Shown: positions 46,156-63,936 of the stretch, in pieces | Layout: each line of letters begins with the position of its first letter | How positions within the stretch are numbered: position 1 is the stretch's first letter | Assembly (NCBI GenBank): GCA_963422705.1 | Contig: OY730443.1 | Coordinates: 2,910,956 to 2,974,955 of the forward strand | DNA: 64,000 nt | Direction of reading: 5' to 3' | DNA from: Candidatus Poribacteria bacterium | Lineage (GTDB): Bacteria > Poribacteria > WGA-4E > WGA-3G | Program-made: the position numbers and the translations under genes | The notes under the pieces: generated by a model | Seen by the model: only the letters and a program-made list of their open reading frames with translations | What the model was told of the DNA's origin: nothing | The model's database searches: none

Positions 46156-47784
46156 TTACACCCCGATTGCATACCCATCGCGTCGCGAATCGGCGCCCCC
46201 CATGAAGCTGCCTTCGTCCGGTTCAAAAGCGATGCCCTGCCCACCACCGACAATCGCCGTCCAAGGCGGTAGCACTTCAACCTCGTGCCCGCGTGCTTCG
46301 AGGGCAGTACGTACCGGAGCGGGAATACGCCCCTCTACCGCGACATGCGTGCCCGGATTTATCAGCCGAACGCGCGGCGCCTCAATCGCGCCCTGAATAT
46401 TCATGCCGTGTTCAATCAGATTCAGGAGCATCTGCACTGTCGTCTGAAGAATACCGTGGCTGCCCGGGGTACCGATTGCAGCAAACGGCATCCCGGCTTT
46501 CCACACTTGGCACGGGGACATACACATCTCAATGCGTTTATGCGGGCCAACAGCGTTTGGGCTCATCGGTTCTGTGTCGAACCAGTTCATAAAATTATTG
46601 AGAAACATTCCGGTTGAACCGAGAATTTCGCCGGAACCGAAAGGTTGTCCGAGGCTCTGTGTGACTGCGACGATATTGCCTTCTGCATCTGCTGTGTCAA
46701 AATGCGTTGTGCATTCCGTCATCCAACGCCTTTCTGTGTAAGGTAGGACTTCACCGGGGCGTTTCTGCCTCGTCCAACGTTCGCCCCGATTCACTGCTGC
46801 CCGTTCGCAGATGCGCTCACGTTGTGCATTCGCATAGTCTTTTGAAAGCAATCGCGCGATGGGTGGATTCGGACGCGCCGCGTACTCGGCTCTATCGGCA
46901 CTTGCCAGTTTAATCGCCTCTAGCAGCAGGTGTAAGTATTCCGCGCTGTTATGCCCTAACATCCCGAGTTCATCATTCTCCAAGATATTCAACGTCTCTA
47001 AATACTGAAATCCTGAACACGGTGGCGGTGGACAGTAAACCTCATAATCCTTGTAGTTAATAGAGAGCGGCGCTTGCCATTCTACCTCAAAATCGGCTAA
47101 ATCCCTTTCGGTAATCAACCCGCCGGTTTTTTCACAGAAGCGAGCAATGTCTTTTGCAATTTCACCGTGGTAGAAAGCTTCCGTGCCACCTTCAACAACC
47201 CGGTGAAACGTTCGTGCTAAATCTTTCTGGACTAAGACTTCCCCGGGAAGCGGTGTTCTCCCTCGCGAGGCGATGATTTGAGTTCCTCGTGTAGAGAGAT
47301 ACGGGAACGCGTCTGCCATGAATCCGGCATTCTTAACTGTAACAGCGTATCCATTTTCTGCCACTTCAATCGCTGGTGCAAAGATATCGGCGCGCGGCAT
47401 GCTTCCGTAACGTTCCAGTAGTGCTAACCAACCGCCACATCCACCTGGTACCATTCCGGAGCGGATACCTTCCTGTTGGTTCGCAATGGTAACAAAAGCC
47501 TCCGGTGTTGCTGCATAAGGGGCAGTGCCTAAATAGTCGAGGACGCGTAATGCCTTCTCCTTCGCGCTATAGAGCAACATATATCCATTGCCGGCGATGC
47601 CTGACATATAGGGTTCAACCACGTTGAGGGTAGATGCAATAGCGACTGCCGCGTCAAACGCGTTTCCGCCGTTGAGCAGCATGCGCGCGCCGGCAAGACT
47701 TGCCTGCGGATGCGCACTTGTTACCATGCCACGCGTCCCAGTTACCGTTGAACGGTGCGTTGTTCCGTGTGATGGAAATGCCAT
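46156..47784 (-). CDS. ggt: gamma-glutamyltransferase
   Basis: 542 aa with the autoprocessing/catalytic Thr context ..ECTTHF.. and GGG..I.. blocks. Confidence 0.9.
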   Translation of the reverse strand: MAFPSHGTTHRSTVTGTRGMVTSAHPQASLAGARMLLNGGNAFDAAVAIASTLNVVEPYMSGIAGNGYMLLYSAKEKALRVLDYLGTAPYAATPEAFVTIANQQEGIRSGMVPGGCGGWLALLERYGSMPRADIFAPAIEVAENGYAVTVKNAGFMADAFPYLSTRGTQIIASRGRTPLPGEVLVQKDLARTFHRVVEGGTEAFYHGEIAKDIARFCEKTGGLITERDLADFEVEWQAPLSINYKDYEVYCPPPPCSGFQYLETLNILENDELGMLGHNSAEYLHLLLEAIKLASADRAEYAARPNPPIARLLSKDYANAQRERICERAAVNRGERWTRQKRPGEVLPYTERRWMTECTTHFDTADAEGNIVAVTQSLGQPFGSGEILGSTGMFLNNFMNWFDTEPMSPNAVGPHKRIEMCMSPCQVWKAGMPFAAIGTPGSHGILQTTVQMLLNLIEHGMNIQGAIEAPRVRLINPGTHVAVEGRIPAPVRTALEARGHEVEVLPPWTAIVGGGQGIAFEPDEGSFMGGADSRRDGYAIGV

Positions 47785-48209: not shown

Positions 48210-49148
48210 TTAAGTGCGCCGAGTACGTCGCTGCCGAAAGAACCGGACGAGGGGTTTTACGTAAGTTTCGTCCGTACGTATGTCGATAACATCAATCTGA
48301 TTTGTGTGAAAGAGCTTCCTGCGTTTAGCATCCGCGCGCTGATTGATTTCGGCATACAATTGTCGCGCACGTGTTGAGCGGGTGTCTACAACCACGTGTT
48401 CCCCAGTTTCCGAATCTACGAGTTCAATCAAGCCGACATTCGGCAATTCGGCTTCAGCCCTATCACGTAGTGTTATCGCAATGAGCGAATGCCGCTGGCT
48501 GATAAGGCATAATTCTTTTTCATACCCGGTGTCTTTAAAATCTGAAATGAGAAACACAACGCTGTGCGGCTTAAGAAGCCGAGCGGTAAATGCTAACGCC
48601 GCCGCAATGTTTGTTCCGCGATGCTGCGGCCCTAGCTGAGTCTCCTTATGTTTCCGGTGCACTGCTTTTTCCGGATTACCCCAATAGAGGATATCTCGAA
48701 CAACGCGGAGAACGTGCCTTTTTCCTTTTTGGGGTGCTACAAAATGTTCAACCTCGTCCGTAAAGCAGATTAACCCTACCTTGTCGTTATTTTTTATGGC
48801 AGAAAAAGCGAGCACGGAGGCAACCTCTGCGGCCACTTCCGCTTTCGTCTGGGGGATACTGCCGAATCCCGTTGAAGCACTCATATCAACAACTAACATC
48901 ATCACTAATTCACGTTCGTCTACATACTTTTTGATATAGGCTTGCCCCATGCGCGCCGTTACATTCCAATCTATCATCCGAATCTCATCACCCGCCTGAT
49001 ATTCGCGAACTTCGTCAAACGTAATCCCCTGCCCCTTAAAGACGCTTTGGTACTCACCCGCAAACATAGTGTTTACCAGTCGATTGGTGAAGATGTCAAT
49101 ACGCTGAATTTCTTTCTCCTTGCTAATCTCTGATTTAACCTCGCTCAT
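48210..49148 (-). CDS. DUF58 domain protein (vWA-like, MoxR-associated family)
   Basis: G.Y.S.FKGQG..F.EVREYQ.GD..R.IDW block. I start at the internal Met at 49148. Confidence 0.8.
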   Translation of the reverse strand: MSEVKSEISKEKEIQRIDIFTNRLVNTMFAGEYQSVFKGQGITFDEVREYQAGDEIRMIDWNVTARMGQAYIKKYVDERELVMMLVVDMSASTGFGSIPQTKAEVAAEVASVLAFSAIKNNDKVGLICFTDEVEHFVAPQKGKRHVLRVVRDILYWGNPEKAVHRKHKETQLGPQHRGTNIAAALAFTARLLKPHSVVFLISDFKDTGYEKELCLISQRHSLIAITLRDRAEAELPNVGLIELVDSETGEHVVVDTRSTRARQLYAEINQRADAKRRKLFHTNQIDVIDIRTDETYVKPLVRFFRQRRTRRT

Positions 49149-49396
49149 GGGCAGTATTTCCTTTTGAAGTTCGGGCCGGGGTAAGATTAGCACTATGCCT
49201 TGTCTGACATTTTCAGTGCCCGTTTCTTAGCGTGATGTCTAACGTCTCTTCTGAAGGTTGTCGGAGCGAGCTACAGTTCACGACATCCTTGGCGAACCTG
49301 AGCAGATATTGAAAATGGAGTGACACTGGCAAATTAGAAATTGCTTGATTAATAACCGATACGACTTTATACTACCAAAAAGAAAGAAAGAAATCA

Positions 49397-50472: not shown

Positions 50473-51276
50473 ATGAAATCTATCATGCAATTAACTTTTG
50501 TAGGACTGAGTTTAATTTTCAGCGTTTGCTTCATCATCACGCCCAGCTTCGCAGCACTTGATATGAGCACTGTGACAGGACTTTGGCTCTTTGATGATGG
50601 GAGTGGTGACGTTGCCGTGGATTCATCCGATAGCGCACTTGATGCAGCGGTGATGGGCAGCCCCACGTGGGTAAGCGGAAAATTCGGTTCGGCGTTGGAA
50701 CTTAACGGCGTCGATGCTTACGTTGAAGTCCCCGCACACGTGAATCCAACCGACGCAATCACTATTTCAATGTGGGTGAAAGGGTTGAGCGAAAACTGGC
50801 TGCAAAACGGGTGGTTCATTGAAAAACGGGACGCATATATTATTCACCCGAACGCCGATACCAAGAATGTGTCCTGGCCGATTTGTAACGGTGGCTGTTG
50901 GAATAAGCCCGGCGGCTGGCGCGACGGGGAAGTCGGCCCAGAAAATATCATGGACTGGCATCTCTACACCACCACCTTTGACAGCACGACAGGGGAGTGG
51001 AATATTTACATCGATGGCATCGCGGAAAGCACCATGACTATTGACACGGCGCCGATTGATGCCGACGACGGGGCGCTCTTTATTGGCAGGGATACATGTT
51101 GCGACGGACGCTTCGGAAACGCCATTATTGACGAAGTCGCTATCTTCAATGTTGCCCTCGGCGCCGCGGATATCCAAACGTTGATGGAAAAAGGACTTTC
51201 AGCTACACTCCTGACACCCGTTGAACCCGTCGATAAACTCTCTACGAGATGGGCAGACGTTAAACAACAGTACTAA
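50473..51276 (+). CDS. secreted LamG (concanavalin A-like lectin) domain protein
   Basis: A signal peptide, then LWLFDDGSGD..A.DSS, GKFGSALELNG, WH..T..FD and IDEVAIFN, which are typical LamG_3 blocks. Confidence 0.8.
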   Translation: MKSIMQLTFVGLSLIFSVCFIITPSFAALDMSTVTGLWLFDDGSGDVAVDSSDSALDAAVMGSPTWVSGKFGSALELNGVDAYVEVPAHVNPTDAITISMWVKGLSENWLQNGWFIEKRDAYIIHPNADTKNVSWPICNGGCWNKPGGWRDGEVGPENIMDWHLYTTTFDSTTGEWNIYIDGIAESTMTIDTAPIDADDGALFIGRDTCCDGRFGNAIIDEVAIFNVALGAADIQTLMEKGLSATLLTPVEPVDKLSTRWADVKQQY

Positions 51277-51405: not shown

Positions 51406-52191
51406 ATGACAGCAAAAGCGATTTTCGTGTCCCTAATAGCGGTGCTATTTGTAACCGCACCCCTGATACACGCCCAACTGCCTCTAGATGGCGTTGTCAG
51501 TTACTGGCCATTTGATGAGGGAACAATTGCCGGGAACACCGTTGAGGACGTTCTCGGGGATAACGACGGTGAACTTGATGGCAATTTTAAGAAAGTTGAT
51601 GGAAAAGTCGGAAAAGCGTTGGAATTCGATGGTGAAAATTTCGTCCATATTCCCGGCACGGCCACGCTAGAATTCGCAGGGGCAGAAGAGATGAGTGTTG
51701 CCGCCTGGGTAAACGCCGATAGCGACAGCCCGGTAAAAGGCGTCGTTGCCGGGTGTTGCGGGACTATCGTCGCCCAGCGCGATATGAACGGGTGGGCATT
51801 AAGATTCGATGGAAGAAATGCAGGACAAGAGATGGAATTTATTGTCATGCCCGGGTGGCAGGGTGATGGCGGCTTTGGCGCCGCAGCCTTCAAGAAGGGA
51901 CAGTGGCACCACATAGTCGGCATTGTGAACAAAAAGGAGATGTTACTCTACGTTGATGGACAATTAGAGAAAGAGATGACTTACAACGGTCCCATGGCAA
52001 CGAACGGTTCTGAAACCGAGATTGGCAAGGCGGGGGACGGTGGCTTCGTCGGCATCATTGACGAGGTAATGATTTATAGCAAGGCGCTCTCAGCTGATGA
52101 AGTCGAACAAATCTTTGAAGCAAAGGGGTTACCCGTTCAACCTACCGGTAAACTTACAACCACTTGGGCGAACGTTAAACACCAGGACTAA
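51406..52191 (+). CDS. secreted LamG domain protein
   Basis: A signal peptide, then YWPFDEG, GKVGKALEFDG, WHH..G.. and IDEVMIYS. Confidence 0.8.
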   Translation: MTAKAIFVSLIAVLFVTAPLIHAQLPLDGVVSYWPFDEGTIAGNTVEDVLGDNDGELDGNFKKVDGKVGKALEFDGENFVHIPGTATLEFAGAEEMSVAAWVNADSDSPVKGVVAGCCGTIVAQRDMNGWALRFDGRNAGQEMEFIVMPGWQGDGGFGAAAFKKGQWHHIVGIVNKKEMLLYVDGQLEKEMTYNGPMATNGSETEIGKAGDGGFVGIIDEVMIYSKALSADEVEQIFEAKGLPVQPTGKLTTTWANVKHQD

Positions 52192-53515: not shown

Positions 53516-53918
53516 ATGAAGCCCATCGCTCTATTTTTTTTACGGGCTCAATCATAACTCCATATTGTTGTACAGCATCGGTACCAGCATCACGCTCTTT
53601 TCTCTCAGCTATTTGGATGACTTCGACGGTGTCTGGTTGTTCGATGAAGACAACGGAAAAACCGCATCAAACGGAACGGTGGGGCCGGCTTCTGGGCAAT
53701 GAGCGCTAGTATTGATAGAAACACCGGTTTTTTTATCTTTGAAGGCGGCGGGCATCACATTGACGATGGAAAAACCGAGATTGTTAAGAAGGGCTGGCAT
53801 CACACCGTCGCTGTCCGGAGAAATGGCGTTATCTCCCTCTACGTCGACGGTGAAAAGGAGACAGAGCGCAATGTCGGCGCCAATATGGATAATCCCGCAT
53901 CCCTCAAATTCGGTGACA
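53516..53918 (+). pseudogene. third LamG gene, degraded (frameshift in T8 run, internal stop, 3' end deleted)
   Basis: AGGAGG lies 6 nt before ATG 53516 (MKPIALFF..). The frame is lost in a run of 8 T. LamG blocks occur in other frames (LDDFDGVWLFDEDNGK.., GWHHTVAVRRNGVISLYVDGE). Homology ends abruptly at about 53918. Confidence 0.6.
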
Positions 53919-54094
53919 GGGGCTTTCACCGCTGATTTTGGCAGCGGTTCCCCCGCTGATTTCGGCAGCGATTCAACGCGTTTGTCACGCTTGAGCGGTG
54001 CTTTCCGGGACTGTGTCTGTAGCAAGTAGAGGCTCACAGCAACAACTGCCAGGAGCAACAGAGATAAACTGAACCAGATTTTTCGGATAACCAT
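53919..54094 (-). pseudogene. truncated sixth copy (F6') of the array family: first ~59 codons only
   Basis: MVIRKIWFSLSLLLLAVVAVSLYLLQTQSRKAPLKRDKRVESLPKSAGEPLPKSAVKAP, then antisense LamG remnant sequence. The track ORF 53609-54199 is therefore chimeric. Confidence 0.65.
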
Positions 54095-54293
54095 TCGGTG
54101 CTCCTTCCACACGTGTACGTGCACGGTGAAATCACACCAACGCAGCTCCGATGAGTTGCGCGGGGAAATACAACGGATGGGCGTGTTGCCGAAACACAAC
54201 TACGTCCCAAATCGAAAAGATACTTTTACGCCAAGATTCAACGTCACAGACATTTTAGAAAAAAACACATGTTTTCGCACGCATTTTTTGAGA

Positions 54294-54326
54294 CAATACC
54301 AGCAAAAAAATACACACTGTTTTCAT
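54294..54326 (-). pseudogene. decapitated remnant of the M15 peptidase gene start (ATGAAAACAGTGTGTATTTTTTTGCTGGTATTG)
   Basis: It lies 12 nt after the F5 stop. It matches the first codons (MKTVCIFLL..) of the gene at 60746 and is then fused to leader sequence. Confidence 0.65.
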
Positions 54327-54338
54327 GATAAAACACCT

Positions 54339-55259
54339 CTATTTTAGACGCGCAAGCGCACCGCGCGCGGCTATTTCTTCATCGTAATTAGGTTTTTCTT
54401 GCGCCAAAACCGCTTCCCATCTTGGTATCAGGATGTGTTCCACAATGCCGCCGAGCTCGGCACGATGCCGTGCGGCAATCCTGCCTAATACCTCAATGGG
54501 GTAACGTCGTTCGTAGGGCTTCGCGCCCATATCAAGCATATAAGGGATAAGATACGGCACGGCAGCCACCCCCATCTCTGCCAACATATTTATCGGACTC
54601 AGTCCTCCAACAAGCCCTTCACAGAGATAAGTTGCCATAACAACGATAGAACGCGGGTCATTCGTATCAAGACTGCCGAGTAGATCGAATGTTTCTTCCA
54701 TATCGCTGTGTCCTGTCGGGCCTGAAAACCCATCGGGGGACGGCATGAGTTGCGCGATGAGGCTAGGCGTTTCGGGGTTCGGCACACCGCCCCATTCCCA
54801 GATATTGTTGGCGATGTACTCCACCCGGTGCCACGCCGCAAGCACCGCCGGTTCGGTGATACCTTCAGGGATGTCCACTACTGCGGCGGTATACTCGCGC
54901 GAGGCGGACACCGCCGGCGACGCAGCAATATTCTCGTTAGGAACTTCAGGGGGCGCAGGCAGTTCGGCATGCGATTCTTCGACGGGCACTTCTCCACCTT
55001 TGTTAGGAATTTCGGGGGTATCAGACTGTTCGGCGTCCCGTGCGTCGCCGGGCACTTCTCCGCCTTGCGAGGACTCATCAACGGGGGCTTTCACCGCTGA
55101 TTTTGGCAGCCCTTCCCCCGCTGATTTCGGCAGCGATTCAACGCGTTTGTCACGCTTGAGGGATTCTTTGGGAGACTGTGTCTGTAGCAAATAGAGGCTC
55201 ACAGCAACAACTGCCAGGAGCAACAGAGATAAACTGAACCAGATTTTTCGGATAACCAT
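54339..55259 (-). CDS. array family protein F5 (signal-anchor, PE-rich linker, unknown C-terminal domain)
   Basis: 306 aa. GGAAGGAG lies 7 nt before the ATG (MVIRKIWF..). It has a TM helix and is a paralog of F1-F4. Confidence 0.8.
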   Translation of the reverse strand: MVIRKIWFSLSLLLLAVVAVSLYLLQTQSPKESLKRDKRVESLPKSAGEGLPKSAVKAPVDESSQGGEVPGDARDAEQSDTPEIPNKGGEVPVEESHAELPAPPEVPNENIAASPAVSASREYTAAVVDIPEGITEPAVLAAWHRVEYIANNIWEWGGVPNPETPSLIAQLMPSPDGFSGPTGHSDMEETFDLLGSLDTNDPRSIVVMATYLCEGLVGGLSPINMLAEMGVAAVPYLIPYMLDMGAKPYERRYPIEVLGRIAARHRAELGGIVEHILIPRWEAVLAQEKPNYDEEIAARGALARLK

Positions 55260-55458
55260 TCGGCACTCCTTCCACACGTGTACGTGCACGGTGAAATCAC
55301 ACCAACGCAGCTCCGATGAGTTGCGCGAGGAAATACAACGGATGGACGTGTTGCCGAAACACAACTACGTCCCAAATCGAAAAGATACTTTTACGCCAAG
55401 ATTCAACGTCACAGACATGCTAGAAAAAAACACATGTTTTCGCAAGCATTTTTTGATA

Positions 55459-55491
55459 CAATACCAGCAAAAAAATACGCACTGTTTTCAT
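55459..55491 (-). pseudogene. decapitated remnant of the M15 peptidase gene start
   Basis: 12 nt after the F4 stop; same sequence logic as 54294-54326. Confidence 0.65.
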
Positions 55492-55503
55492 GATAAAACA
55501 CCT

Positions 55504-56409
55504 CTATTTTAGACGCGCAAGCGCATCGCGCGCGGATTTTCCTTCATGGTAATCCGGTTCTTCTTGCGCCAAAATCGCTTCCCATCTCGGTATCAGGATG
55601 TGTTCTACAATGCCGCCGAGCTCGGCACGATGCTGTGCGGCAATCTTGCCTAATACGTCAATCGGGTAACGTCGTTCGTAGGGCTTCGCGCCCATATCAA
55701 GCATATAAGGGATAAGATACGGCACGGCAGCCACCCCCATCCTTGCCAACGCATTTTCTGGTCCCAGTCCTCCAACACGCCCTCCACAGTAGTAAGTTGC
55801 CATAACGACGATAGAACGCGGGTCATTCGTATCGAGGCTGCCGAGTCGATTGAATGTTTCTTCCATATCGCTGTGTCCTGTCGGGCCTGAAAACCCATCG
55901 GGGGACGGCATGAGTTGCGCGATGAGGCCAGGCGTTTCGGGGTTGGGTACACCGCCCCATTCCCAGATATTGTTGGCGATGTATTCCACCCGGTGCCACG
56001 CCGCAAGCACCGCCGGTTCGGTGATACCTTCAGGGATGTCCACTACTGCCGGGGTATACTCGCGCGAGGCGGACACCGCCGGCGCAGCAATACCCTCGTT
56101 AGGAACTTCAGGGAGCGCAGACCGCTCGGCATGCGATTCTTCGACGGGCACTTCTCCGCCTTTGTTAGGAATTTCGGGGGTATCAGGCTGTTCCTCGCCG
56201 GGCCGTTCTCCGCCTTGCGAGGGTTCATCAACGGGGGCTCCCCCCGCTGATTTTGGCAGCTCTTCCCCCGCTGATTTCAGCAACGATTCAACGGGGGTGG
56301 CACGCTTGAGGGATTCTTTGGGAGACTGTGTCTGTAGCAAATAGAGGCTCACAGCAACAACTGCCAGGAGCAACAGAGATAAACTGAACCAGGGTTTTCG
56401 GATAACCAT
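55504..56409 (-). CDS. array family protein F4
   Basis: 301 aa, same architecture. The RBS is GGAAGGAG. Confidence 0.8.
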   Translation of the reverse strand: MVIRKPWFSLSLLLLAVVAVSLYLLQTQSPKESLKRATPVESLLKSAGEELPKSAGGAPVDEPSQGGERPGEEQPDTPEIPNKGGEVPVEESHAERSALPEVPNEGIAAPAVSASREYTPAVVDIPEGITEPAVLAAWHRVEYIANNIWEWGGVPNPETPGLIAQLMPSPDGFSGPTGHSDMEETFNRLGSLDTNDPRSIVVMATYYCGGRVGGLGPENALARMGVAAVPYLIPYMLDMGAKPYERRYPIDVLGKIAAQHRAELGGIVEHILIPRWEAILAQEEPDYHEGKSARDALARLK

Positions 56410-56457
56410 TCGGCGCTCCTTCCACACGTGTATGTGCAGGGTGACATCATTTTGAGA

Positions 56458-56491
56458 CAATACCAGCAGAAGAAATACACACTGTTTTCAT
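56458..56491 (-). pseudogene. decapitated remnant of the M15 peptidase gene start
   Basis: 13 nt after the F3 stop (ATGAAAACAGTGTGTATTTCTTCTGCTGGTATTG). Confidence 0.65.
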
Positions 56492-56504
56492 GATAAAAAC
56501 ACCT

Positions 56505-57359
56505 CTATTTTAGACGCGAAAGCGCATCGCGCGCCCGCTTTTCTTCAGAGTAATCCGGTTTTTCTTGCGCCAAAATCGATTCCCATCTCGGTATCAGGAT
56601 GTGTTCCACAATGCCCTCTAAATCGGCGCGATGCCGTGCGGCAATCTTGCCTAATACGATAATCGCTCTACTTCGTAAGTTCGGACTGTGCTCCATATCA
56701 AGCATATAACGGATAAGATACGGCACGGCAGCCACCCCCATCCTTGCCAACGCATTTTCTGGTCCCAGTCCTCCAACACGCCCTCCACAGTAGTAAGTTG
56801 CCATAACGACGATAGAACGCGGGTCATTCGTATCGAGGCTGCCGAGTCGATTGAATGTTTCTTCCATATCGCTGTGTCCTGTCGGGCCTGAAAACCCATC
56901 GGGGGACGGCATGAGTTGCGCGATGAGGCCAGGCGTTGCGGGGTTGGGCACACCGCCCCATGCCCAGATATTGTTGGCGATGTATTCCACCCGGTGCCAC
57001 GCCGCAAGCACCGCCGGTTCAGTGATACCTTCAGGGATGTCCACTACCGCGGGGGTATACTCGCGCGAGGCGGACACACCCGGCCGCGCAGCAATACCTT
57101 CGTTAGGAACTTCGGAGGTATCAGGCGGTTCGGCGTCCCGTGCGTCGACGGGCACTTCTCCACCTTGCGAAGGCTCATCAACGGGGGCTCCCGCCGCTGA
57201 TTTTGGCAGCGGTTTCCCCGCTGATTTCGGCAGCGATTCAACGCGTTTGTCACGCTTGAGGGATTCTTTGGGAGACTGTGTCTGTAGCAAGTAGAGACTC
57301 ACACCAACAACGGCGATGAGCAACAGAGATAAACTGAACCAGGGTTTTCGGATAACCAT
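56505..57359 (-). CDS. array family protein F3
   Basis: 284 aa with the shortest linker. Confidence 0.8.
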   Translation of the reverse strand: MVIRKPWFSLSLLLIAVVGVSLYLLQTQSPKESLKRDKRVESLPKSAGKPLPKSAAGAPVDEPSQGGEVPVDARDAEPPDTSEVPNEGIAARPGVSASREYTPAVVDIPEGITEPAVLAAWHRVEYIANNIWAWGGVPNPATPGLIAQLMPSPDGFSGPTGHSDMEETFNRLGSLDTNDPRSIVVMATYYCGGRVGGLGPENALARMGVAAVPYLIRYMLDMEHSPNLRSRAIIVLGKIAARHRADLEGIVEHILIPRWESILAQEKPDYSEEKRARDALSRLK

Positions 57360-57438
57360 TCGGCGCTCCTTCCACACGTGTACGTGCAGGGTGAAATCAC
57401 ACCAACGGAGCTCCGATGAGTTACGCGGGGATTTGAGA

Positions 57439-57472
57439 CAATACCAACAGAAAAAATACGCACTGTTTTCAT
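57439..57472 (-). pseudogene. decapitated remnant of the M15 peptidase gene start
   Basis: 13 nt after the F2 stop (ATGAAAACAGTGCGTATTTTTTCTGTTGGTATTG). Confidence 0.65.
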
Positions 57473-57485
57473 GATAAAAATACCT

Positions 57486-58382
57486 CTATTTTAGACGCGA
57501 AAGCGCATCGCGCGCGGCTATTTCTTCATCGTAATTAGGTTTTTCTTGCGCCAAAATCGCTTCAAATCTCGGTATCAGGATGTGTTCTACAATCCCGCCT
57601 AGCTCCGCGCGATGCCGTGCGGCAATCCTGCCTAATATGATAATGGGTCTATACCGTAATAGCGGTGTCATCTCCATATCAAGCATATAAGGGATAAGAT
57701 ACGGCACGGCAGGAACCCCCATCTCTACCAACATATCTATCGGACCCATCCCTCCAACAATCCCTTCACAGAGGTAAGTTGCCATAACGACGATAGAACG
57801 CGGGTCATTCGTATCGAGGCTGCCGAGTCGATTGAATGTTTCTTCCATATCGCTGTGTCCTGTCGGGCCTGAAAACCCATTGGGGACGGGCATGAGTTGT
57901 GCGATGAGGCCAGGCGTTGCGGGGTTGGGCACACCGCCCCATGCCCAGATATTGTTGGCGATGTACTCCACCCGGTGCCACGCCGCAAGCACCGCCGGTT
58001 CGGTGATACCTTCAGGGATGTCCACTACCGCGGGGGTATACTCGCGCGAGGCGGACACACCCGGCCGCGCAGCAATACCTTCGTTAGGAACTTCGGAGGT
58101 ATCAGGCGGTTCGGCATGCGATTCTTCGACGGACACTTCTCCACCTTTGTTAGGAACTTCGGGGGTATCAGACTGTTCGGCGTCCCGTGCGTCGACGGGC
58201 ACTTCTCCACCTTGCGAAGGCTCATCAACGGGGGCTTTCACCGCTGATTTCGGCAGCGATTCAACGCGTTTGTCACGCTTGAGCGGTGCTTTCGGGGACT
58301 GTGTCTGTAGCAAGTAGAGGCTCACAGCAACAACTGCCAGGAGCAACAGAGATAAACTGAACCAGATTTTTCGGATAACCAT
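57486..58382 (-). CDS. array family protein F2
   Basis: 298 aa, same architecture. Confidence 0.8.
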   Translation of the reverse strand: MVIRKIWFSLSLLLLAVVAVSLYLLQTQSPKAPLKRDKRVESLPKSAVKAPVDEPSQGGEVPVDARDAEQSDTPEVPNKGGEVSVEESHAEPPDTSEVPNEGIAARPGVSASREYTPAVVDIPEGITEPAVLAAWHRVEYIANNIWAWGGVPNPATPGLIAQLMPVPNGFSGPTGHSDMEETFNRLGSLDTNDPRSIVVMATYLCEGIVGGMGPIDMLVEMGVPAVPYLIPYMLDMEMTPLLRYRPIIILGRIAARHRAELGGIVEHILIPRFEAILAQEKPNYDEEIAARDALSRLK

Positions 58383-58730
58383 TCGGCACTCCTTCCACAC
58401 GTGTACGTGCCGGGTCAAATCACACCAACGCAGCTCGGATAAGTTGCGAGGGGAAATGCAACGGATGGGCGTGTTGCTGAAACACAACTACGTCCCAAGA
58501 GGGTGCTAGTCTCTATTGGTATCGCACACAAACCGAGTTGTACGCTATGATAGAAACTAGCGCTGTTATCGTCTACTTACGGGTGCTCGGTAAAGCATTC
58601 TATAAAAAACACACACTGTTCGGCAAGCATTTTTTCATACAATAACGCCAATAAGACGAACGCCCCCGCAATCAAAAGAACATAGGGTTGAAAAGGGTGA
58701 TGCTGTTTCTCTCATCGTCGAAAAAGCACA

Positions 58731-60746
58731 CTACTCCGGCCAACACCGCAGCCCGTTTCTCTTTCGATACGGCTTATTGCAAATCGGGGTGCTACGGACA
58801 CACCGCTGCCAGGTTTGACGGCATTCGCGCAAACGACACGTACGCACCCTATGTTTATTCTCGGCACTCTCCGATTCAGGATTATACGAATGTCCCGCAG
58901 AACACGTCGCAACAAAACGGTGTTCATGCGGGGTGCAATAATAATAACCACCAGAAGTCTGACACGAATACGGGCCATATTCCATACGACACGATGATAC
59001 CCACGCATGATACGAACGCCGTCGACGATGCGTCGTGTCATGTCCACACGCATATTGACGCACCGCAGACGGTGCCGGTACCTCTGGATAGACATGTTTA
59101 TGGCTCGGACGCGTACAGACATAATACGTCCCGATGAGACACGCCTTGCCATTCTTGCTAGGGCAGAACTGTGCTTCGGTATGTGAACGCCCGGCTTTAC
59201 AACGATAACCCGAATGTGAACCACACGGCAATGTGCCATACGCATGACGAGAAAACTCAGACGACGATGGCGGTTGACACGCATAATAACTATGTGAACC
59301 ACACGAAAAACTCACTGATGCATGAGAAGACGCTTCAGCCTTCTTATGACGATGCCCACACGGACTCGTTACATACGTATCGCTCGGCGCCGGTGCAGCT
59401 GGAAATCTATGAACATGCGGGGTACACGCATAATAGTCACTCCCGTTCGTACACGTATCGCCATTCGAATTCGTCACCGAACACGAGGAGATACGAGAAT
59501 GCTCGCCACTCGCCGTCAAAGGGTGCCCACACCGATGATATTGCCCGGCGGGCGGATGCATCACCCGCGGTTGCAGGGACGACAGCACCTGCACAGCAGT
59601 CGTGGTGCTGTCAGTGCCTTTCGGCGGCTCACACGGCGGAGAATAGACGGTACCAGGAAAGGGCGGCCAACTCCCGCCATCTCCCCGACGCAACGTCCAA
59701 TCCGCATGCGTATGTGTGCTATAGTATTCCCAAGAACCTGTCCATTTCGCACCCGCATCTATGGCACTACGTGCCATCAGTTTAGCATCATCGCTTTTTG
59801 CCTCGTTTTTTCTTACCTGCTCCACCGTGCCATCGCCATCGACATCAAGCGTCTTAATATCTAACGCATCGCCATAGCAGTGGCGACTATGGAAGGAGGC
59901 CTTAGCGGGCGCAGCGACATGAAATCGCTGGTGATACGGGTTGCGATACGCACTGTTGACTTTGAAGGCTTTATCCGAAAAGACGGCTAATCCATTCTTC
60001 TTGCGGTATGCGTTGACTTGCGACAGCCACCCCGACTTTTTGGCTTTCAAGCCGTCATCTATCATATAACGGTAGTGTCCCGTATTCCAGTCATCAACGC
60101 CGTTGCTCGATAGCTCATCCTTAAATTTATCGCGCGCAGGAACAGGCAACTCGGCCCGAGCATCCGGCGGTGTCATGTCCACATATTCCTGACGCAGTAT
60201 GTCAATTTCATCTTGCGTCCACGTTTTCGTCAGCCTCACAGTCTTCAGGTTATCGGCATCCGAACCGTAGTAGCCGATAAACTGGATTTTTACCGCCATC
60301 GGGGTGTTGCCTCTGCCATTTTTACCACGACATGTTTCAACCTTTGTCGTATCCGCGGGACCCTCCAACATCGCCTCCACTGAAAAAGTGGTGTCCGGCG
60401 AAAACGGCGACACATCAGAAACGCGACTCGACTTCACCGCCTTGCGCACCGTAAAACCGTTGTTCATCGTAATCTGAAAATTAAAACGCTCAATCGGGTA
60501 GACATACTGTGAAGGTTGGCGCGCACAATACTTCACATCGACTTTCACACATGCCGTCTTCTCTGAGTTCGTAATAAATGTCGTGAAAACCGCGTTATCT
60601 GAACCGGAACTTTGCCCGATTGTCCAATCTCCCCAACGGACACACGGCGCTGTTGGGGAGACTTCACCAGAAACCAGCGCTGTTCGCACCGACAGACACG
60701 GTACCAATACCAGCAGAAAAAGTAAAAAAATACACACTGTTTTCAT
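58731..60746 (-). CDS. secreted M15-type (hedgehog/DD-peptidase fold) zinc peptidase-like protein with C-terminal Cys/His-rich repeats
   Basis: 671 aa with signal peptide MKTVCIFLLFLLVLVPCLSV. M15 zinc motifs are SRHCYGDALDI (S-x-H-x-x-G-x-A-x-D) and THTHAD (H-x-H). The ATG lies 12 nt after the F1 stop. Confidence 0.8.
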   Translation of the reverse strand: MKTVCIFLLFLLVLVPCLSVRTALVSGEVSPTAPCVRWGDWTIGQSSGSDNAVFTTFITNSEKTACVKVDVKYCARQPSQYVYPIERFNFQITMNNGFTVRKAVKSSRVSDVSPFSPDTTFSVEAMLEGPADTTKVETCRGKNGRGNTPMAVKIQFIGYYGSDADNLKTVRLTKTWTQDEIDILRQEYVDMTPPDARAELPVPARDKFKDELSSNGVDDWNTGHYRYMIDDGLKAKKSGWLSQVNAYRKKNGLAVFSDKAFKVNSAYRNPYHQRFHVAAPAKASFHSRHCYGDALDIKTLDVDGDGTVEQVRKNEAKSDDAKLMARSAIDAGAKWTGSWEYYSTHTHADWTLRRGDGGSWPPFPGTVYSPPCEPPKGTDSTTTAVQVLSSLQPRVMHPPAGQYHRCGHPLTASGEHSRISSCSVTNSNGDTCTNGSDYYACTPHVHRFPAAPAPSDTYVTSPCGHRHKKAEASSHASVSFSCGSHSYYACQPPSSSEFSRHAYGTLPCGSHSGYRCKAGRSHTEAQFCPSKNGKACLIGTYYVCTRPSHKHVYPEVPAPSAVRQYACGHDTTHRRRRSYHAWVSSCRMEYGPYSCQTSGGYYYCTPHEHRFVATCSAGHSYNPESESAENKHRVRTCRLRECRQTWQRCVRSTPICNKPYRKRNGLRCWPE

Positions 60747-60758
60747 GATAAAACACCA

Positions 60759-61667
60759 CTATTTTAGACGCGCAAGCGCATCGCGCGCGGATTTTTCTTC
60801 AAAGTAATCCGGTTTTTCTTGCGCCAAAATCGCTTCAAATCTCGGTATCAGGATGTGTTCTACAATCCCGCCTAGCTCCGCGCGATGCCGTGCGGCAATC
60901 CTGCCTAATACCTCAATAGGGTAACTTCGTTCGTAGGGCTTTGCACCCATATCAAGCATATAAGGGATAAGATACGGCACGGCAGCCACCCCCATCTCTG
61001 CCAACATATTTATCGGACTCAGTCCTCCAACAAGCCCTTCACAGAGATAAGTTGCCATAACAACGATAGAACGCGGGTCATTCGTATCAAGACTGCCGAG
61101 TAGATCGAATGTTTCTTCCATATCGCTGTGTCCTGTCGGGCCTGAAAACCCATCGGGGGACGGCATGAGTTGTGCGACGAGGCCAGGCGTTGCGGGGTTG
61201 GGCACACCGCCCCATGCCCAAATATTGTTGGCGATGTACTCCACCCGGTGCCACGCCGCAAGCACCGCCGGTTCGGTGATACCTTCGGGGATGTCCACCA
61301 CTGCCGGGGTATACTCGCGCGAGGCGGACACCGCCGGCCGCGCAGCAATACCTTCGTTAGGAACTTCGGAGGTATCAGGCGGTTCGTCGACGGGCCCTTC
61401 TCCACCTTTGTTAGGAATTTCGGGGGTATCAGGCGGTTCGGCATCCCGTGCATCGACGGGCACTTCTCCACCTTGCGAAGGCTCATCAACGGGGGCTTTC
61501 ACCGCTGATTTTGGCAGCGGTTCCCCCGCTGATTTCGGCAGCGATTCAACGCGTTTGTCACGCTTGAGGGATTCTTTGGGAGACTGTGTCTGTAGCAAAT
61601 AGAGGCTCACAGCAACAACTGCCAGGAGCAACAGAGATAAACTGAACCAGATTTTTCGGATAACCAT
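60759..61667 (-). CDS. array family protein F1
   Basis: 302 aa; first copy, directly upstream of the intact M15 gene. Confidence 0.8.
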   Translation of the reverse strand: MVIRKIWFSLSLLLLAVVAVSLYLLQTQSPKESLKRDKRVESLPKSAGEPLPKSAVKAPVDEPSQGGEVPVDARDAEPPDTPEIPNKGGEGPVDEPPDTSEVPNEGIAARPAVSASREYTPAVVDIPEGITEPAVLAAWHRVEYIANNIWAWGGVPNPATPGLVAQLMPSPDGFSGPTGHSDMEETFDLLGSLDTNDPRSIVVMATYLCEGLVGGLSPINMLAEMGVAAVPYLIPYMLDMGAKPYERSYPIEVLGRIAARHRAELGGIVEHILIPRFEAILAQEKPDYFEEKSARDALARLK

Positions 61668-61824
61668 TCGGCACTCCTTCCACACGTGTACGTGCACGGT
61701 GAAATCACACCAACGCAGCTCCGATGAGTTGCGCGGGGAAATACAACGGATGGACGTGTTGCCGAAACACAACTACGTCCCAAATCGAAAAGATACTTTT
61801 ACGCCAAGATTCAACGTCACAGAC

Positions 61825-62698: not shown

Positions 62699-62930
62699 GT
62701 GATAGCACCCACACGCGAAAGCGTGGGGCTTCGGTTTCGTAGCAACTGCGGTTTTCTCATAGAGTCAACCGTCTTACTGTCGCTCCACCAGCGGGCGTTT
62801 CCCTGTAGGTTTCTACAGGCATATCGTCAAGTGACGGCTATCCCTGCCCGCAAAATGTTTCGCGCAGCGTTGATGTCTCTATCGTGGTGGGAACCACAGG
62901 CGGGGCATGTCCACTGCCTATCGTCCAATG
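62699..62930 (-). ncRNA. putative TnpB omega-RNA (reRNA) scaffold / IS right end
   Basis: The 3' end of tnpB plus about 125 nt downstream contains hairpins (CCTGTAGAAACCTACAGG, CCACGCTTTCGCGTGTGG). It ends in GGGTGCTATCAC at 62699, mirroring the GTGAGTATCAC termini at 34179 and 35962. The 5' boundary is a guess. Confidence 0.4.
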
Positions 62931-63936
62931 TTAGGGTTTCGTTATGAAAACCGCAATCACGACAAGGTTTGGTTGTAGCTGTCCATTGTCCGACTTTTTT
63001 AAAATGATGCTTATGTTTTTGACACTTATATTCCAATATCTTAACGAACTGGTAGAAGGCGAGGTCCGATACTTTACGCCCCCACAGGCGTTTCATGCCG
63101 TCAAGGTTCAATGTCTCAAGGACAATGATATCAAACTTTTTACAAAGTTCACTTGCCAGTTGCCAGTGAAAATCTTTGCGGTGGTTGCTAATTTTCCGAT
63201 ACAGACGTGCGAGTTGTCTCACACACCGCCACCACCGGTTAGAACCTTTAACTTTACGAGAAAACGCTTTATTGAGAGTCCGAAGTTTGTTCAAGGACTG
63301 TTTCAAAGGTTGTGGGTGTTGGATTTTCTCACCCGTGCTAAGTGTCAAGTACGCGTCTTTCATTCCGAAGTCTGCCCCAACGCTTTTACCTGTTGTCGGC
63401 AGTGGTAAAAAATCTGTGTCATCCGTTATGAGGTAAAGCCAATAGTCGCCGCAATTGTCACGTTTGATCGTGATACGCCTAAGTTTTCCATGCCAGTGGC
63501 GGTGTTTATGAAACGTATAAGGCACTTTATCAAATCGCCACTTCCCTTTATCCCACTGACGAAAACTGAGTGTAATACGGTTGTTAGTGAGTTTAAATCC
63601 AGTTTGTTTCAGCGTGATAGACTTAAACTTATGCTCCGGTTTGATATGGGGGTTACCTCCCCGTTTATTAAAGAACCTTTGATACGCATTATCAATTCGT
63701 TCCAACTCTGCTTGGAGCCCTTGGCTTGGCAACAACTTCCAATGTTGATGTATGGTTCGTTTCAATATGCAGGCATGTTGACACATTGCAGCGTAGTTGG
63801 CATACGGCAAGCCGTCTTTATACCGGTGACGCTGCCACTTATGGAAATAGACATGCACCTGCCACATATCGTCAAGCAGATTTCCAATGCGGATGGTATT
63901 AGATTGTTTCCCAAGCGGGTATTTATAGGTTTTCAT
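62827..63936 (-). CDS. tnpB: IS200/IS605-family TnpB (RNA-guided RuvC nuclease), apparently intact
   Basis: 369 aa. RuvC-I is VGADFGMKD, RuvC-II is IVLETLN, the zinc ribbon is CRDCGF..CPACG and RuvC-III is HHDRDINAARNI. No tnpA is seen within the 64 nt left upstream. Confidence 0.9.
   Translation of the reverse strand: MKTYKYPLGKQSNTIRIGNLLDDMWQVHVYFHKWQRHRYKDGLPYANYAAMCQHACILKRTIHQHWKLLPSQGLQAELERIDNAYQRFFNKRGGNPHIKPEHKFKSITLKQTGFKLTNNRITLSFRQWDKGKWRFDKVPYTFHKHRHWHGKLRRITIKRDNCGDYWLYLITDDTDFLPLPTTGKSVGADFGMKDAYLTLSTGEKIQHPQPLKQSLNKLRTLNKAFSRKVKGSNRWWRCVRQLARLYRKISNHRKDFHWQLASELCKKFDIIVLETLNLDGMKRLWGRKVSDLAFYQFVKILEYKCQKHKHHFKKVGQWTATTKPCRDCGFHNETLTLDDRQWTCPACGSHHDRDINAARNILRAGIAVT

What the first reader, a model, noticed from the sequence alone, without database searches (positions are those of the whole stretch)
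58734..59549. Unassigned Cys/His-rich repeat region (22 Cys in ~270 aa) at the C-terminus of the M15 protein
After the M15 core (about aa 262-350, 59697-59963) the protein carries at least four similar modules. They are YHRCGHPL..HSRISSCS..GDTC..DYYACTPHVHRF, SPCGHRH..HASVSFSCGSHSYYAC.., LPCGSHSGYRC..HTEAQFCPSKNGKAC..TYYVCTRPSHKHVY and YACGHD..HAWVSSC..YSC..GYYYCTPHEHRF. A Cys/Arg-rich tail follows. The consensus is roughly C-G-(H/S)-x(n)-H-x(3-6)-C-x(5-10)-C-x(4-7)-Y-Y-x-C-x(2-4)-H-x-H-(R/V)-(F/Y). This looks like a repeated metal-binding or disulfide-knotted unit that I cannot place in a known family. It may target the enzyme to a substrate or receptor.
Basis: seen in the sequence. Interest (0 to 1): 0.7.

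Follow-up and report, generated by a model that had tools for sequence, protein, structure and literature searches.

The report
Unclassified Cys/His repeat tail, Poribacteria
The Cys/His-rich end of this exported peptidase-like protein is a real, conserved repeat domain found in no curated family; it forms the shared tail of several hundred otherwise unannotated exported proteins, apparently of sponge-symbiont Poribacteria, each encoded next to a matching membrane-anchored partner gene.

Summary
Window 58734-59549 (- strand) encodes aa 400-671 of a 671-aa exported protein, with 22 Cys, 21 His and 20 Tyr in 272 aa.

The tail holds three full 47-aa modules, one truncated variant and a 60-aa Cys-rich terminal unit. 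The module consensus is C-G-x0-1-H ... H ... C ... C ... Y-x-C-x2-H-x-H-x-Y-P. A module profile built without the window protein or its three closest relatives scores the tail at 101 bits; 1000 shuffles reach at most -0.2.

Across 289 distinct modules the four Cys are 99-100% conserved and the four His 87-97%. Pfam, NCBIfam, PDB sequences and Foldseek give no match. A search of 1.84 billion representative proteins finds 247 clusters. Every member that carries a source name is a Candidatus Poribacteria hypothetical protein.

N-terminal heads vary. Here the head is a divergent LAS/M15 peptidase-like domain. Each gene follows a membrane-anchored partner gene whose C-domain co-varies with the head. 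The window holds five full and one truncated partner copies.

His-to-Cys swaps and the lack of even-Cys bias favour metal (Zn-type) knuckles over an all-disulfide knot. The tail's function, whether targeting, anchoring or export handling, is inferred and untested. It is a new domain family in a polymorphic effector/partner cassette.

The parts
58731..60746 (-). Whole gene: 671-aa exported protein made of signal peptide, Ig-like domain, LAS/M15-like domain, linker and Cys/His tail
   Evidence: ORF. 33 homologues. Full-length alignment A2. AF2 model.
60678..60746 (-). N-terminal signal peptide or signal anchor (aa 1-23)
   Evidence: The sequence MKTVCIFLLFLLVLVPCLSV has a basic residue followed by a hydrophobic run. 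The layout is conserved in homologues. AF2 predicts a helix at aa 2-23. No dedicated signal-peptide predictor was available.
60216..60659 (-). N-terminal beta-sandwich (Ig-like) domain, aa 30-177
   Evidence: AF2 predicts an all-beta fold, mostly with pLDDT 80-95. Foldseek PDB hits align it to Ig-like domains of KirBac, TCR and PmoB. No Pfam family matches.
59637..60209 (-). Divergent LAS/M15 metallopeptidase-like head, aa 180-370, with R268, H272, H289-x6-D296 and H345-x-H347
   Evidence: Pfam M15_4 gives E 2e-4 and M15_3 gives E 5e-3, both below gathering score. R268, H272, H289, G292, A294, D296, H347 and W350 are invariant in 22 homologues. The only PDB profile hits are M15 peptidases 2vo9, 8q2g, 23ri and 1lbu, at E 0.17-0.33.
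59541..59636 (-). Pro/Ser/Thr-rich linker, aa 371-402
   Evidence: The sequence is. AF2 pLDDT is below 50 for aa 380-404. Length and sequence vary among homologues.
59400..59540 (-). Cys/His module 1 (aa 403-449), full CHHCCCHH pattern
   Evidence: HMM domain E 4e-19. With the leave-out HMM it scores 60 bits.
59235..59366 (-). Truncated variant unit (aa 461-504) with 3 Cys. It directly precedes the 5-Cys module 2, as in the relatives read.
   Evidence: Only a weak HMM match at aa 461-492. The same variant-plus-module pair recurs in P0002, P0003, P0011, P0014, P0022, P0023 and P0027.
59085..59234 (-). Cys/His module 2 (aa 505-554), with one extra Cys at C516
   Evidence: HMM domain E 5e-12. Leave-out HMM score 35 bits.
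58914..59054 (-). Cys/His module 3 (aa 565-611)
   Evidence: HMM domain E 7e-12. Leave-out HMM score 26 bits.
58734..58913 (-). Terminal Cys-rich unit (aa 612-671): C-x2-G-H-x-Y ... H-R-x-R-T-C ... C-x3-W-x2-C ... C ... C-W
   Evidence: A separate HMM finds it in 105 of 173 module proteins, and within 12 aa of the C-terminus in 90. AF2 pLDDT is 72-82. hhalign shows no relation to the module.
60759..61772 (-). Upstream partner gene: membrane anchor, Pro/Glu-rich linker and a conserved 190-aa C-domain. The probable start is the ATG at 61667. It ends 12 nt before the peptidase gene.
   Evidence: ORF. A homologue lies immediately upstream of the M15-like gene in almost all of the 25 related loci. 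No Pfam, NCBIfam or PDB match.
53609..58487 (-). Downstream array of partner paralogues: 57486-58487, 56505-57377, 55504-56460, 54339-55364, and a truncated copy at 53609-54199
   Evidence: The full-length copies are 75-91% identical to one another. The truncated copy matches over its first 108 aa only.

Best explanation
The last 272 residues are an array of small Cys/His-rich units of an undescribed family. The array holds three 47-aa modules (ligand pattern C-H-H-C-C-C-H-H), one truncated module and a distinct 60-aa terminal unit.

Each module most likely folds around bound metal. The proposal is two Zn-type sites built from short knuckles, C4-x1-2-H7 with C39-x2-H42, and H15/C21/C31/H44. 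The alternative of two disulfides alone is less likely.

The array is the constant, non-catalytic tail of a large family of exported proteins. Every member that carries a name or a genome assignment is from Candidatus Poribacteria. The N-terminal heads are interchangeable. In this protein the head is a divergent LAS/M15 zinc-peptidase-like domain behind an Ig-like domain.

The tail is proposed to hold or direct the head outside the cytoplasm by multivalent binding to a cell-envelope or matrix ligand. Its role would be like the C-terminal wall-targeting domains of lysostaphin-type enzymes.

The membrane-anchored partner encoded just upstream matches the head type. It is proposed to neutralise or escort the head, in an immunity-like role. 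That would explain the five-plus-one partner copies in this window.

Shown: the anatomy, the conservation, the absence from known families, the variable heads, the synteny and the head/partner co-variation. Inferred: metal binding, the targeting role and the immunity-like role.
For: - **Real repeats.** The composition and repeats are real and non-random.
- **Conservation.** In 289 distinct modules C4, C21, C31 and C39 are 99-100% conserved. H7, H15, H42 and H44 are 87-97% conserved.
- **Deviations behave like ligand changes.** Most are register shifts that keep the His count. H44 is replaced by Cys in about 12 modules. In P0166, H7 and H44 are both replaced by Cys, giving C-x2-C.
- **Joint loss.** One variant lineage loses C21, C31 and H44 together but keeps C4, H7, C39 and H42.
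- **No even-Cys bias.** 54 of 106 mature proteins and 49 of 106 tails have an even Cys count. An obligately disulfide-bonded domain would not behave this way.
- **No known family.** Pfam, NCBIfam, PDB and Foldseek give no match.
- **Family size.** 247 representative clusters carry the module, with up to 19 modules per protein. Only about 45 of 173 also carry a LAS motif.
- **Swappable tails.** Family members P0012 and P0013 carry other C-terminal regions in the same position.
- **Intact head site.** The LAS zinc-site residues are invariant.
- **Partner synteny.** The partner gene is immediately upstream in nearly all 25 related loci.
- **Co-variation.** Three further head types pair with three other partner C-domains, while the partner N-terminus is shared.
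- **Taxonomy.** 23 of 25 M15-family loci are Candidatus Poribacteria MAGs. The only named tail proteins are Poribacteria hypothetical proteins.
Against: - No metal, ligand or binding was measured.
- The proteins look Sec-exported, and Cys in exported bacterial proteins usually forms disulfides rather than binding zinc.
- The AF2 single-module model is only moderately confident (pLDDT 74, with three of five models near 50). The repeats are below 50 in the full-length model.
- The joint loss of C21, C31 and H44 rests on six similar sequences, probably a single evolutionary event. It also fits a C21-C31 disulfide.
- The layout is the reverse of classical polymorphic toxins: the shared part is C-terminal and the partner gene is upstream.
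- A GspC-like gene often lies downstream in related loci. This would suit an export-signal role for the tail at least as well as a targeting role.
- The M15 assignment of the head is below curated thresholds.
Confidence: 0.45

Rival explanations
1. The modules are disulfide-stapled mini-domains, with C4-C39 and C21-C31 bonded. They form a rigid extracellular stalk or spacer. The conserved His residues serve some other purpose, such as pH sensing or weak metal contacts.
For: The proteins begin with signal-peptide-like segments. Canonical modules have exactly four Cys in 217 of 289 cases. The C21-C31 spacing varies from 4 to 12 residues around a conserved N-G turn, as in a disulfide-closed hairpin. 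C21 and C31 are lost together.
Against: Cys counts show no even bias in mature proteins or in tails. His is replaced by Cys at ligand positions, giving 5-Cys modules. The four His are almost as conserved as the Cys. H44 is lost together with C21 and C31.
Confidence: 0.25
2. The shared tail, and above all the terminal unit, is an export or sorting signal. After Sec transport it would be recognised by a secretin-type (T2SS-like) pathway through the GspC-like protein encoded next to many family members, or it would anchor the protein to the producer's surface.
For: The terminal unit lies within 12 aa of the C-terminus in 90 of the 105 proteins that have it. The tail is constant while heads vary. 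A 160-175-aa membrane protein with a weak Pfam T2SSC match (E 5.6e-5) lies directly downstream in L029, L031 and L034 and downstream of the M15-like gene in L005, L011, L013, L017 and L019.
Against: The T2SSC match is below the gathering score, and the gene is absent from this window. The terminal unit also occurs internally, up to four times per protein. Module number varies from 1 to 19, which is unusual for a signal. NCBIfam, which includes models of C-terminal sorting domains, matches nothing in the tail.
Confidence: 0.2
3. The tail is a metal store or scavenger, a metallothionein-like buffer for Zn, Cu or Ni in the sponge matrix, and not a binding or handling domain.
For: Each 47-aa module has eight potential ligands, and the tail is 8% Cys and 8% His. 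Partners in other loci carry a His-rich motif, GHWHGDEWH.
Against: Spacing is strictly conserved, as are non-ligand residues G5, G28, Y37, Y46 and P47. That points to a defined fold, not a loose chelator. The tail is always fused to large heads with cognate partners. The window's own partners lack the His-rich motif.
Confidence: 0.05
4. The region is a chance or compositional feature, or is not translated in this frame.
For: None beyond the unusual composition.
Against: It lies in a 671-aa ORF with 33 homologues. The leave-out HMM gives 101 bits against -0.2 or less for shuffles. 247 clusters carry the module.
Confidence: 0.01

Closest known systems
C-terminal cell-wall-targeting domains of bacteriolytic metallopeptidases and endolysins (lysostaphin SH3b, zoocin A target-recognition domain, Ply500 cell-wall-binding domain, LysM repeats). 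This comparison rests on established knowledge, not on a test here.
   Same: A non-catalytic, swappable module lies C-terminal to a LAS-type zinc peptidase-like domain behind a flexible linker. Copy number varies. Some family members carry a different C-terminal region in its place.
   Different: There is no sequence or fold similarity. The unit is rich in Cys and His. The same tail serves many unrelated, unannotated heads. No ligand is known.
Zinc-knuckle and zinc-ribbon type mini-domains (C2H2/C4 sites built from two short knuckles)
   Same: Ligand pairs are spaced by 1-2 residues (C-x1-2-H and C-x2-H). His and Cys interchange at ligand positions. The predicted structure has only short beta bridges and no hydrophobic core.
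   Different: The eight-ligand pattern matches no Pfam zinc-finger model. Foldseek finds no PDB neighbour. The proteins are exported, whereas the well-known zinc fingers are cytoplasmic or nuclear. Metal binding is untested.
Polymorphic toxin and immunity cassettes, and bacteriocins with immunity genes
   Same: An enzymatic or variable domain is fused to a shared region. An adjacent small gene co-varies with the variable domain. Partner-gene arrays occur (five plus one here). Truncated head remnants sit after orphan partners. Mobile-element genes lie nearby.
   Different: The shared part is C-terminal and the variable head N-terminal. The partner lies upstream and is membrane-anchored, with its own shared N-terminus. 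No known toxin, immunity or secretion-system domain is detected. Toxicity is untested.
Peptidase family M15 / LAS enzymes (Ply500 L-alanyl-D-glutamate peptidase 2vo9, Streptomyces DD-carboxypeptidase 1lbu). This applies to the head only.
   Same: The S-x-H-x2-G-x-A-x-D and H-x-H zinc-site motifs are invariant. All weak Pfam and PDB matches point to this family.
   Different: Scores are below curated cut-offs. There are long insertions, an added N-terminal Ig-like domain and an RQEYVD helix specific to this family.

Membership tests
Any curated repeat or domain family (Pfam-A 2025, NCBIfam 20.0) | A significant profile match over aa 400-671 or over tails of relatives | tested here: not met
   No hit at E<=1 on the window protein, its tail alone, P0011, P0014, P0022, P0034 or P0036. 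Among 87 tail-bearing proteins only stray He_PIG, Dockerin and M15_3 hits appear.
Any solved structure (PDB) | Sequence, profile or fold similarity of the module | tested here: not met
   phmmer and the module profile give nothing below E about 2-6. Foldseek on the module model gives its best E at 9.2. The model has only pLDDT 74, so a fold match could have been missed.
Zinc-knuckle / zinc-ribbon type metal-binding mini-domain | Two or more ligand pairs spaced by 1-4 residues, with Cys/His interchange tolerated | tested here: met
   C4-x1-2-H7, C39-x2-H42 and H42-x-H44 are conserved. H44 to C and H7 to C replacements occur.
Zinc-knuckle / zinc-ribbon type metal-binding mini-domain | Stoichiometric metal bound by these residues | not testable with these tools
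Disulfide-knotted extracellular domain | An even number of Cys per mature protein or domain array | tested here: not met
   54 of 106 mature proteins and 49 of 106 tails are even, with binomial p of 0.92 and 0.50.
Peptidase M15 / LAS (head domain) | Zinc ligands H-x6-D plus a distal H (H-x-H) | tested here: met
   H289, D296 and H347 are invariant, and H345 is nearly so, in 22 and 12 homologues.
Peptidase M15 / LAS (head domain) | Score above the curated family threshold, or a clear structural match | tested here: not met
   M15_4 scores 22.3 bits against a cut-off of 25. M15_3 scores 17.3 against 23.2. PDB profile hits are at E 0.17-0.33. No M15 structure appears among the top 50 Foldseek hits.
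Polymorphic toxin / immunity cassette | A variable domain on a shared scaffold, with an adjacent gene that co-varies with it | tested here: met
   Four head types pair with four partner C-domain types. The window carries a partner array.
Polymorphic toxin / immunity cassette | Canonical layout (toxin at the C-terminus, immunity gene downstream) and known trafficking domains | tested here: not met
   The head is N-terminal and the partner upstream. No known toxin or trafficking domain is detected.
Polymorphic toxin / immunity cassette | Toxicity of the head and its neutralisation by the partner | not testable with these tools
   This needs expression experiments.
T2SS-dependent substrate with a dedicated GspC-like adaptor | An adjacent GspC/T2SSC-family gene | tested here: inconclusive
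   The downstream protein in eight related loci gives Pfam T2SSC at E 5.6e-5 and 7.4e-4, below the gathering score of 27 bits. There is none in the window.

The most novel reading that the evidence does not exclude
The Cys/His tail and the membrane-anchored partner together define an undescribed effector system, so far seen only in Poribacteria. Several hundred exported proteins would have interchangeable N-terminal heads, among them a LAS peptidase. All would carry a metal-binding C-terminal array that acts as a new kind of export or targeting tag, possibly read by a cassette-encoded GspC-like adaptor. Each would be guarded by a cognate TonB-like anchored immunity or escort protein. The system would be used in competition among sponge symbionts or in dealing with the host matrix.
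Probability: 0.3. Interest if true: 0.75.

Novelty: new variant of a known kind. Interest (0 to 1): 0.6.

Why it matters
Poribacteria are abundant, uncultured sponge symbionts, and their large sets of exported 'hypothetical' proteins are unexplained. This finding ties at least 247 protein clusters (at 50% identity) together through one recognisable C-terminal domain and one cassette logic: a partner matched to each head. That gives an entry point for annotating them.

If the modules bind metal outside the cytoplasm through mixed Cys/His sites, they would be an unusual kind of extracytoplasmic zinc-knuckle repeat. If the tail is an export or targeting tag, it would be a rare case of a recognisable sequence signal on envelope-crossing substrates.

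The head/partner co-variation and the five-copy partner array suggest bacterial antagonism inside the sponge holobiont. That idea can be tested by heterologous expression.

Tried and rejected
- **Genome scan with the module alignment (A1):** The full-length alignment A2 was used instead.
- **The search for homologous proteins with A1:** found nothing, probably because the word filter fails on 47-aa queries. P0014 was used for the last search.
- **Exact look-up of the window protein:** not on record. The taxon is therefore inferred from relatives.
- **Foldseek, single module against PDB:** no hit.
- **Foldseek, full-length model against PDB:** only the Ig-like domain plus signal helix matched, to KirBac, TCR and PmoB.
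- **Foldseek, full-length model against the viral library:** nothing significant.
- **hhalign, module against terminal unit:** no relation. They are treated as two unit types, although one hybrid-looking copy exists in P0011 at aa 806-856.
- **NCBIfam colicin Z C-terminal hit to aa 33-101:** E 0.007 and 16.6 bits against a cut-off of 50. Treated as noise.
- **Promoter and terminator scan of 53.4-62.3 kb:** fewer sites than in shuffles.
- **Tandem Repeats Finder:** no DNA-level repeat under the modules.
- **Heme c attachment:** considered and rejected, because no CxxCH motif is present.
- **Cupredoxin-type copper site:** considered and rejected, because the C-x2-H-x-H loop lacks the roughly 100-aa beta-sandwich.
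- **Literature:** searches for Poribacteria with 'cysteine-rich', 'peptidase M15', 'immunity protein' and 'histidine-rich' found nothing relevant.
Full report
**1. What is there**

The finding lies in one ORF, 58731..60746 on the minus strand, 671 aa. Residues 400-671 correspond to 58734-59549. They hold 22 Cys, 21 His and 20 Tyr in 272 aa. The first 399 aa hold 8 Cys and 8 His. No curated family covers this part. Pfam gives only two sub-threshold M15 hits at aa 260-347, and NCBIfam gives nothing relevant. A PDB sequence search is empty.

**2. Anatomy of the tail**

A first search returned 33 relatives. None carries a name and none has a Pfam hit on the C-terminus. Their sequences show the same unit again and again.

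A regular expression, and then an HMM, define a 47-aa module. The window protein has:
- full copies at aa 403-449, 505-554 and 565-611;
- a truncated variant at aa 461-504;
- a separate unit at aa 612-671.

An HMM built without the window protein and its three nearest relatives scores the real tail at 101 bits. One thousand shuffles of the same residues reach at most -0.2. There is no DNA-level tandem repeat, so the copies are old.

Conservation across 289 distinct full modules:

| Position | Conservation |
|---|---|
| C4 | 99% |
| G5 | 91% |
| H7 | 97% |
| H15 | 87% |
| C21 | 99% |
| G28 | 82% |
| C31 | 100% |
| Y37 | 90% |
| C39 | 100% |
| H42 | 88% |
| H44 | 93% |
| Y46 | 84% |
| P47 | 78% |

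The truncated variant has 3 Cys. In the window and in the relatives read it is directly followed by a module with an extra Cys, 5 in total.

The last 60 aa are a second unit type. It is present in 105 of 173 module proteins and lies within 12 aa of the C-terminus in 90 of them. It also occurs internally, up to four times per protein. hhalign sees no relation between the two unit types.

**3. Metal or disulfide**

Coordinates of the AF2 models were not available, so the argument rests on sequence statistics.
- The ligand pattern CHHCCCHH holds in 65% of modules. Most deviations are register shifts that keep the number of His.
- H44 is replaced by Cys in about 12 modules, giving five Cys. In P0166, H7 and H44 are both Cys, which creates a C-x2-C knuckle.
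- One variant lineage (six sequences) lacks C21, C31 and H44 together but keeps C4, H7, H15, C39 and H42. This fits two ligand sets, {C4, H7, C39, H42} and {H15, C21, C31, H44}. It also fits a C21-C31 disulfide.
- The number of Cys shows no even bias: 54 of 106 mature proteins and 49 of 106 tails are even. A domain array that depends on disulfides would not behave this way.

AF2 on the module alignment gives pLDDT 74 with only short beta bridges. Foldseek finds no PDB neighbour. I lean towards metal-stabilised knuckles, at roughly 55:35 over a pure disulfide knot. The exported location argues the other way.

**4. The rest of the protein**

AF2 on the full-length alignment predicts:
- a signal helix at aa 2-23;
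- a confident beta-sandwich at aa 30-177;
- a confident alpha/beta domain at aa 180-370;
- a disordered linker;
- low confidence over the repeats;
- pLDDT 72-82 for the terminal unit.

Foldseek aligns only the Ig-like part to PDB entries. The viral library gives nothing.

The domain at aa 180-370 keeps R268, H272, H289, G292, A294, D296, H347 and W350 invariant in 22 homologues. This is the S-x-H-x2-G-x-A-x-D ... H-x-H zinc site of LAS/M15 peptidases. A profile of this domain hits only M15 peptidases in the PDB (2vo9, 8q2g, 23ri, 1lbu), but weakly, at E 0.17-0.33. I therefore call it M15-like and do not file it as a member of a curated M15 family.

**5. Distribution**

The module profile was run against 1.84 billion representative proteins. 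It finds 247 clusters at E<=1e-3 and 104 at E<=1e-10, with up to 19 modules in one protein.

Most full-length members of the 173 proteins in hand start with a signal-peptide-like segment. Only about 45 of the 173 have a LAS motif. Pfam finds almost nothing in 87 of them.

A scan of one genome per species with the M15-family alignment found 25 loci. Of these, 23 are Candidatus Poribacteria MAGs, one is an unnamed MAG, and one weak partial hit is in a Bryobacteraceae MAG. The only tail proteins that carry a source name are 'hypothetical protein [Candidatus Poribacteria bacterium]'. The window therefore very probably comes from a Poribacteria genome. This is an inference, because the exact protein is not on record. 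Literature searches found no description of this repeat or cassette.

**6. Genomic context**

Immediately upstream of the gene, with a gap of 12 nt, lies a gene for a protein with a membrane anchor, a Pro/Glu-rich linker and a 190-aa C-domain (60759-61772). A homologue sits in the same place in nearly all 25 related loci, often overlapping the start codon.

The window holds four more full copies and one truncated copy downstream, at 53609-58487. The full-length copies are 75-91% identical to one another.

Tail-bearing proteins with other heads also have an upstream anchored partner. The partners share the N-terminal ~90 aa, which is the anchor plus a GHWHGDEWH-type motif that the window copies lack. 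Their C-domains differ and co-vary with the head:

| Head type | Partner |
|---|---|
| M15-like head | window-type C-domain |
| P0011/P0022/P0181/P0036 head | L029_326, L032_335, L030_335 |
| P0052 head | L031_271 |
| P0045/P0190 head | L033_244, L034_241, L029_237 |

Orphan partners followed by truncated head remnants occur (L030_73, L029_104). Transposase or integrase genes are often nearby. In the window this is a TnpB gene at 62827-63936.

A 160-175-aa membrane protein with a weak T2SSC (GspC) match lies just downstream in eight related loci, but not in the window.

**7. Interpretation**

The shown facts describe a polymorphic cassette: a variable exported head, a constant Cys/His tail, and a partner matched to the head.

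The best-supported reading has three parts.
- The tail is a non-catalytic array of metal-stabilised mini-domains. It positions or handles the head outside the cytoplasm, in the manner of the wall-targeting domains of lysostaphin-type enzymes.
- The partner is an immunity-like or escort protein.
- The partner array in the window resembles arrays of orphan immunity genes.

The main rivals are a disulfide-stapled stalk, and an export or sorting signal read by the GspC-like protein. Neither is excluded. Nothing here measures metal, binding, export or toxicity.

**8. Verdict**

The 'unplaced, conserved repeat' part holds. The function remains inferred.

It is a new domain family, in fact two unit types, inside a new variant of the effector-plus-partner theme, so far seen only in Poribacteria. 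Interest is moderate to high, because the finding organises a large block of dark exported proteins of an uncultured symbiont phylum and poses clear experiments.

Noticed in passing
window 53609-58487 and 60759-61772 (- strand): Six tandem paralogues (five full, one truncated at 53609-54199) of a membrane-anchored protein with no known domain. The full copies are 75-91% identical. The same family lies upstream of the M15-like gene in nearly all related Poribacteria loci.
   Followed up: yes
window 61668-61772, 58383-58487, 55260-55364 and 54095-54199: The listed ORFs of four paralogues (three full copies and the truncated one) extend about 35 codons upstream of the likely ATG (MVIRK...). This leader (CFGNTSIRCISPRNSSELRWCDFTVHVHVWKECR) is itself conserved between copies. 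The duplicated unit therefore includes the 5' region.
   Followed up: no
window 62827-63936 (- strand): A TnpB / IS605 OrfB-type gene (Pfam OrfB_IS605 and Cas12f1-like TNB, E about 1e-20) lies next to the cassette. Related cassettes also sit beside OrfB, Y1 transposase, DDE transposase or integrase genes (L001, L002, L032, L029, L030).
   Followed up: partly
L029 10988-11467; L031 6445-6942; L034 5592-6116; also L005, L011, L013, L017, L019: A 160-175-aa membrane protein with a weak Pfam T2SSC (GspC) match (E 5.6e-5, below threshold) lies directly downstream of the tail-bearing gene in L029, L031 and L034 and downstream of the M15-like gene in the five other loci. It is absent from the window.
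   Followed up: partly
L002 6944-7192; L031 2939-3124; L030 685-891: Small ORFs of 61-82 aa with one membrane helix and a Pro-rich stretch holding four Cys. In L002 and L031 they lie just upstream of the partner gene; in L030 the ORF lies at the head of the gene cluster. No clear equivalent was found in the window.
   Followed up: no
L029, L030, L032, L033 (GHWHGDEWH); L002, L031, L034 and the L029 214-aa ORF (GH[FW]H.DG[TE][WF]H-type variants): Partners in other loci carry a conserved His-rich motif, GHWHGDEWH or a close variant, after the membrane anchor and a Pro-rich stretch. The overall layout is TonB-like. The window's partners have a Pro/Glu-rich linker without this motif.
   Followed up: no
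L030 2647-2868; L029 6426-6740: Short ORFs that look like truncated N-terminal remnants of tail-bearing head types. Each follows an orphan partner gene, which suggests decay and turnover of cassettes.
   Followed up: partly
window 50473-51276 and 51406-52191 (+ strand): Two adjacent paralogous genes with Laminin_G_3 (concanavalin A-like lectin) domains. Nearby are genes for gamma-glutamyltranspeptidase (46156-47784), a DUF58/VWA protein (48210-49193), a HAD hydrolase and a GFO/IDH/MocA oxidoreductase.
   Followed up: no
window 60444-60650 (aa 33-101 of the protein): A weak NCBIfam match of the N-terminal Ig-like domain to 'colicin Z C-terminal domain-related' (E 0.007, 16.6 bits against a cut-off of 50). 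Probably noise, but it fits a bacteriocin-like reading.
   Followed up: no
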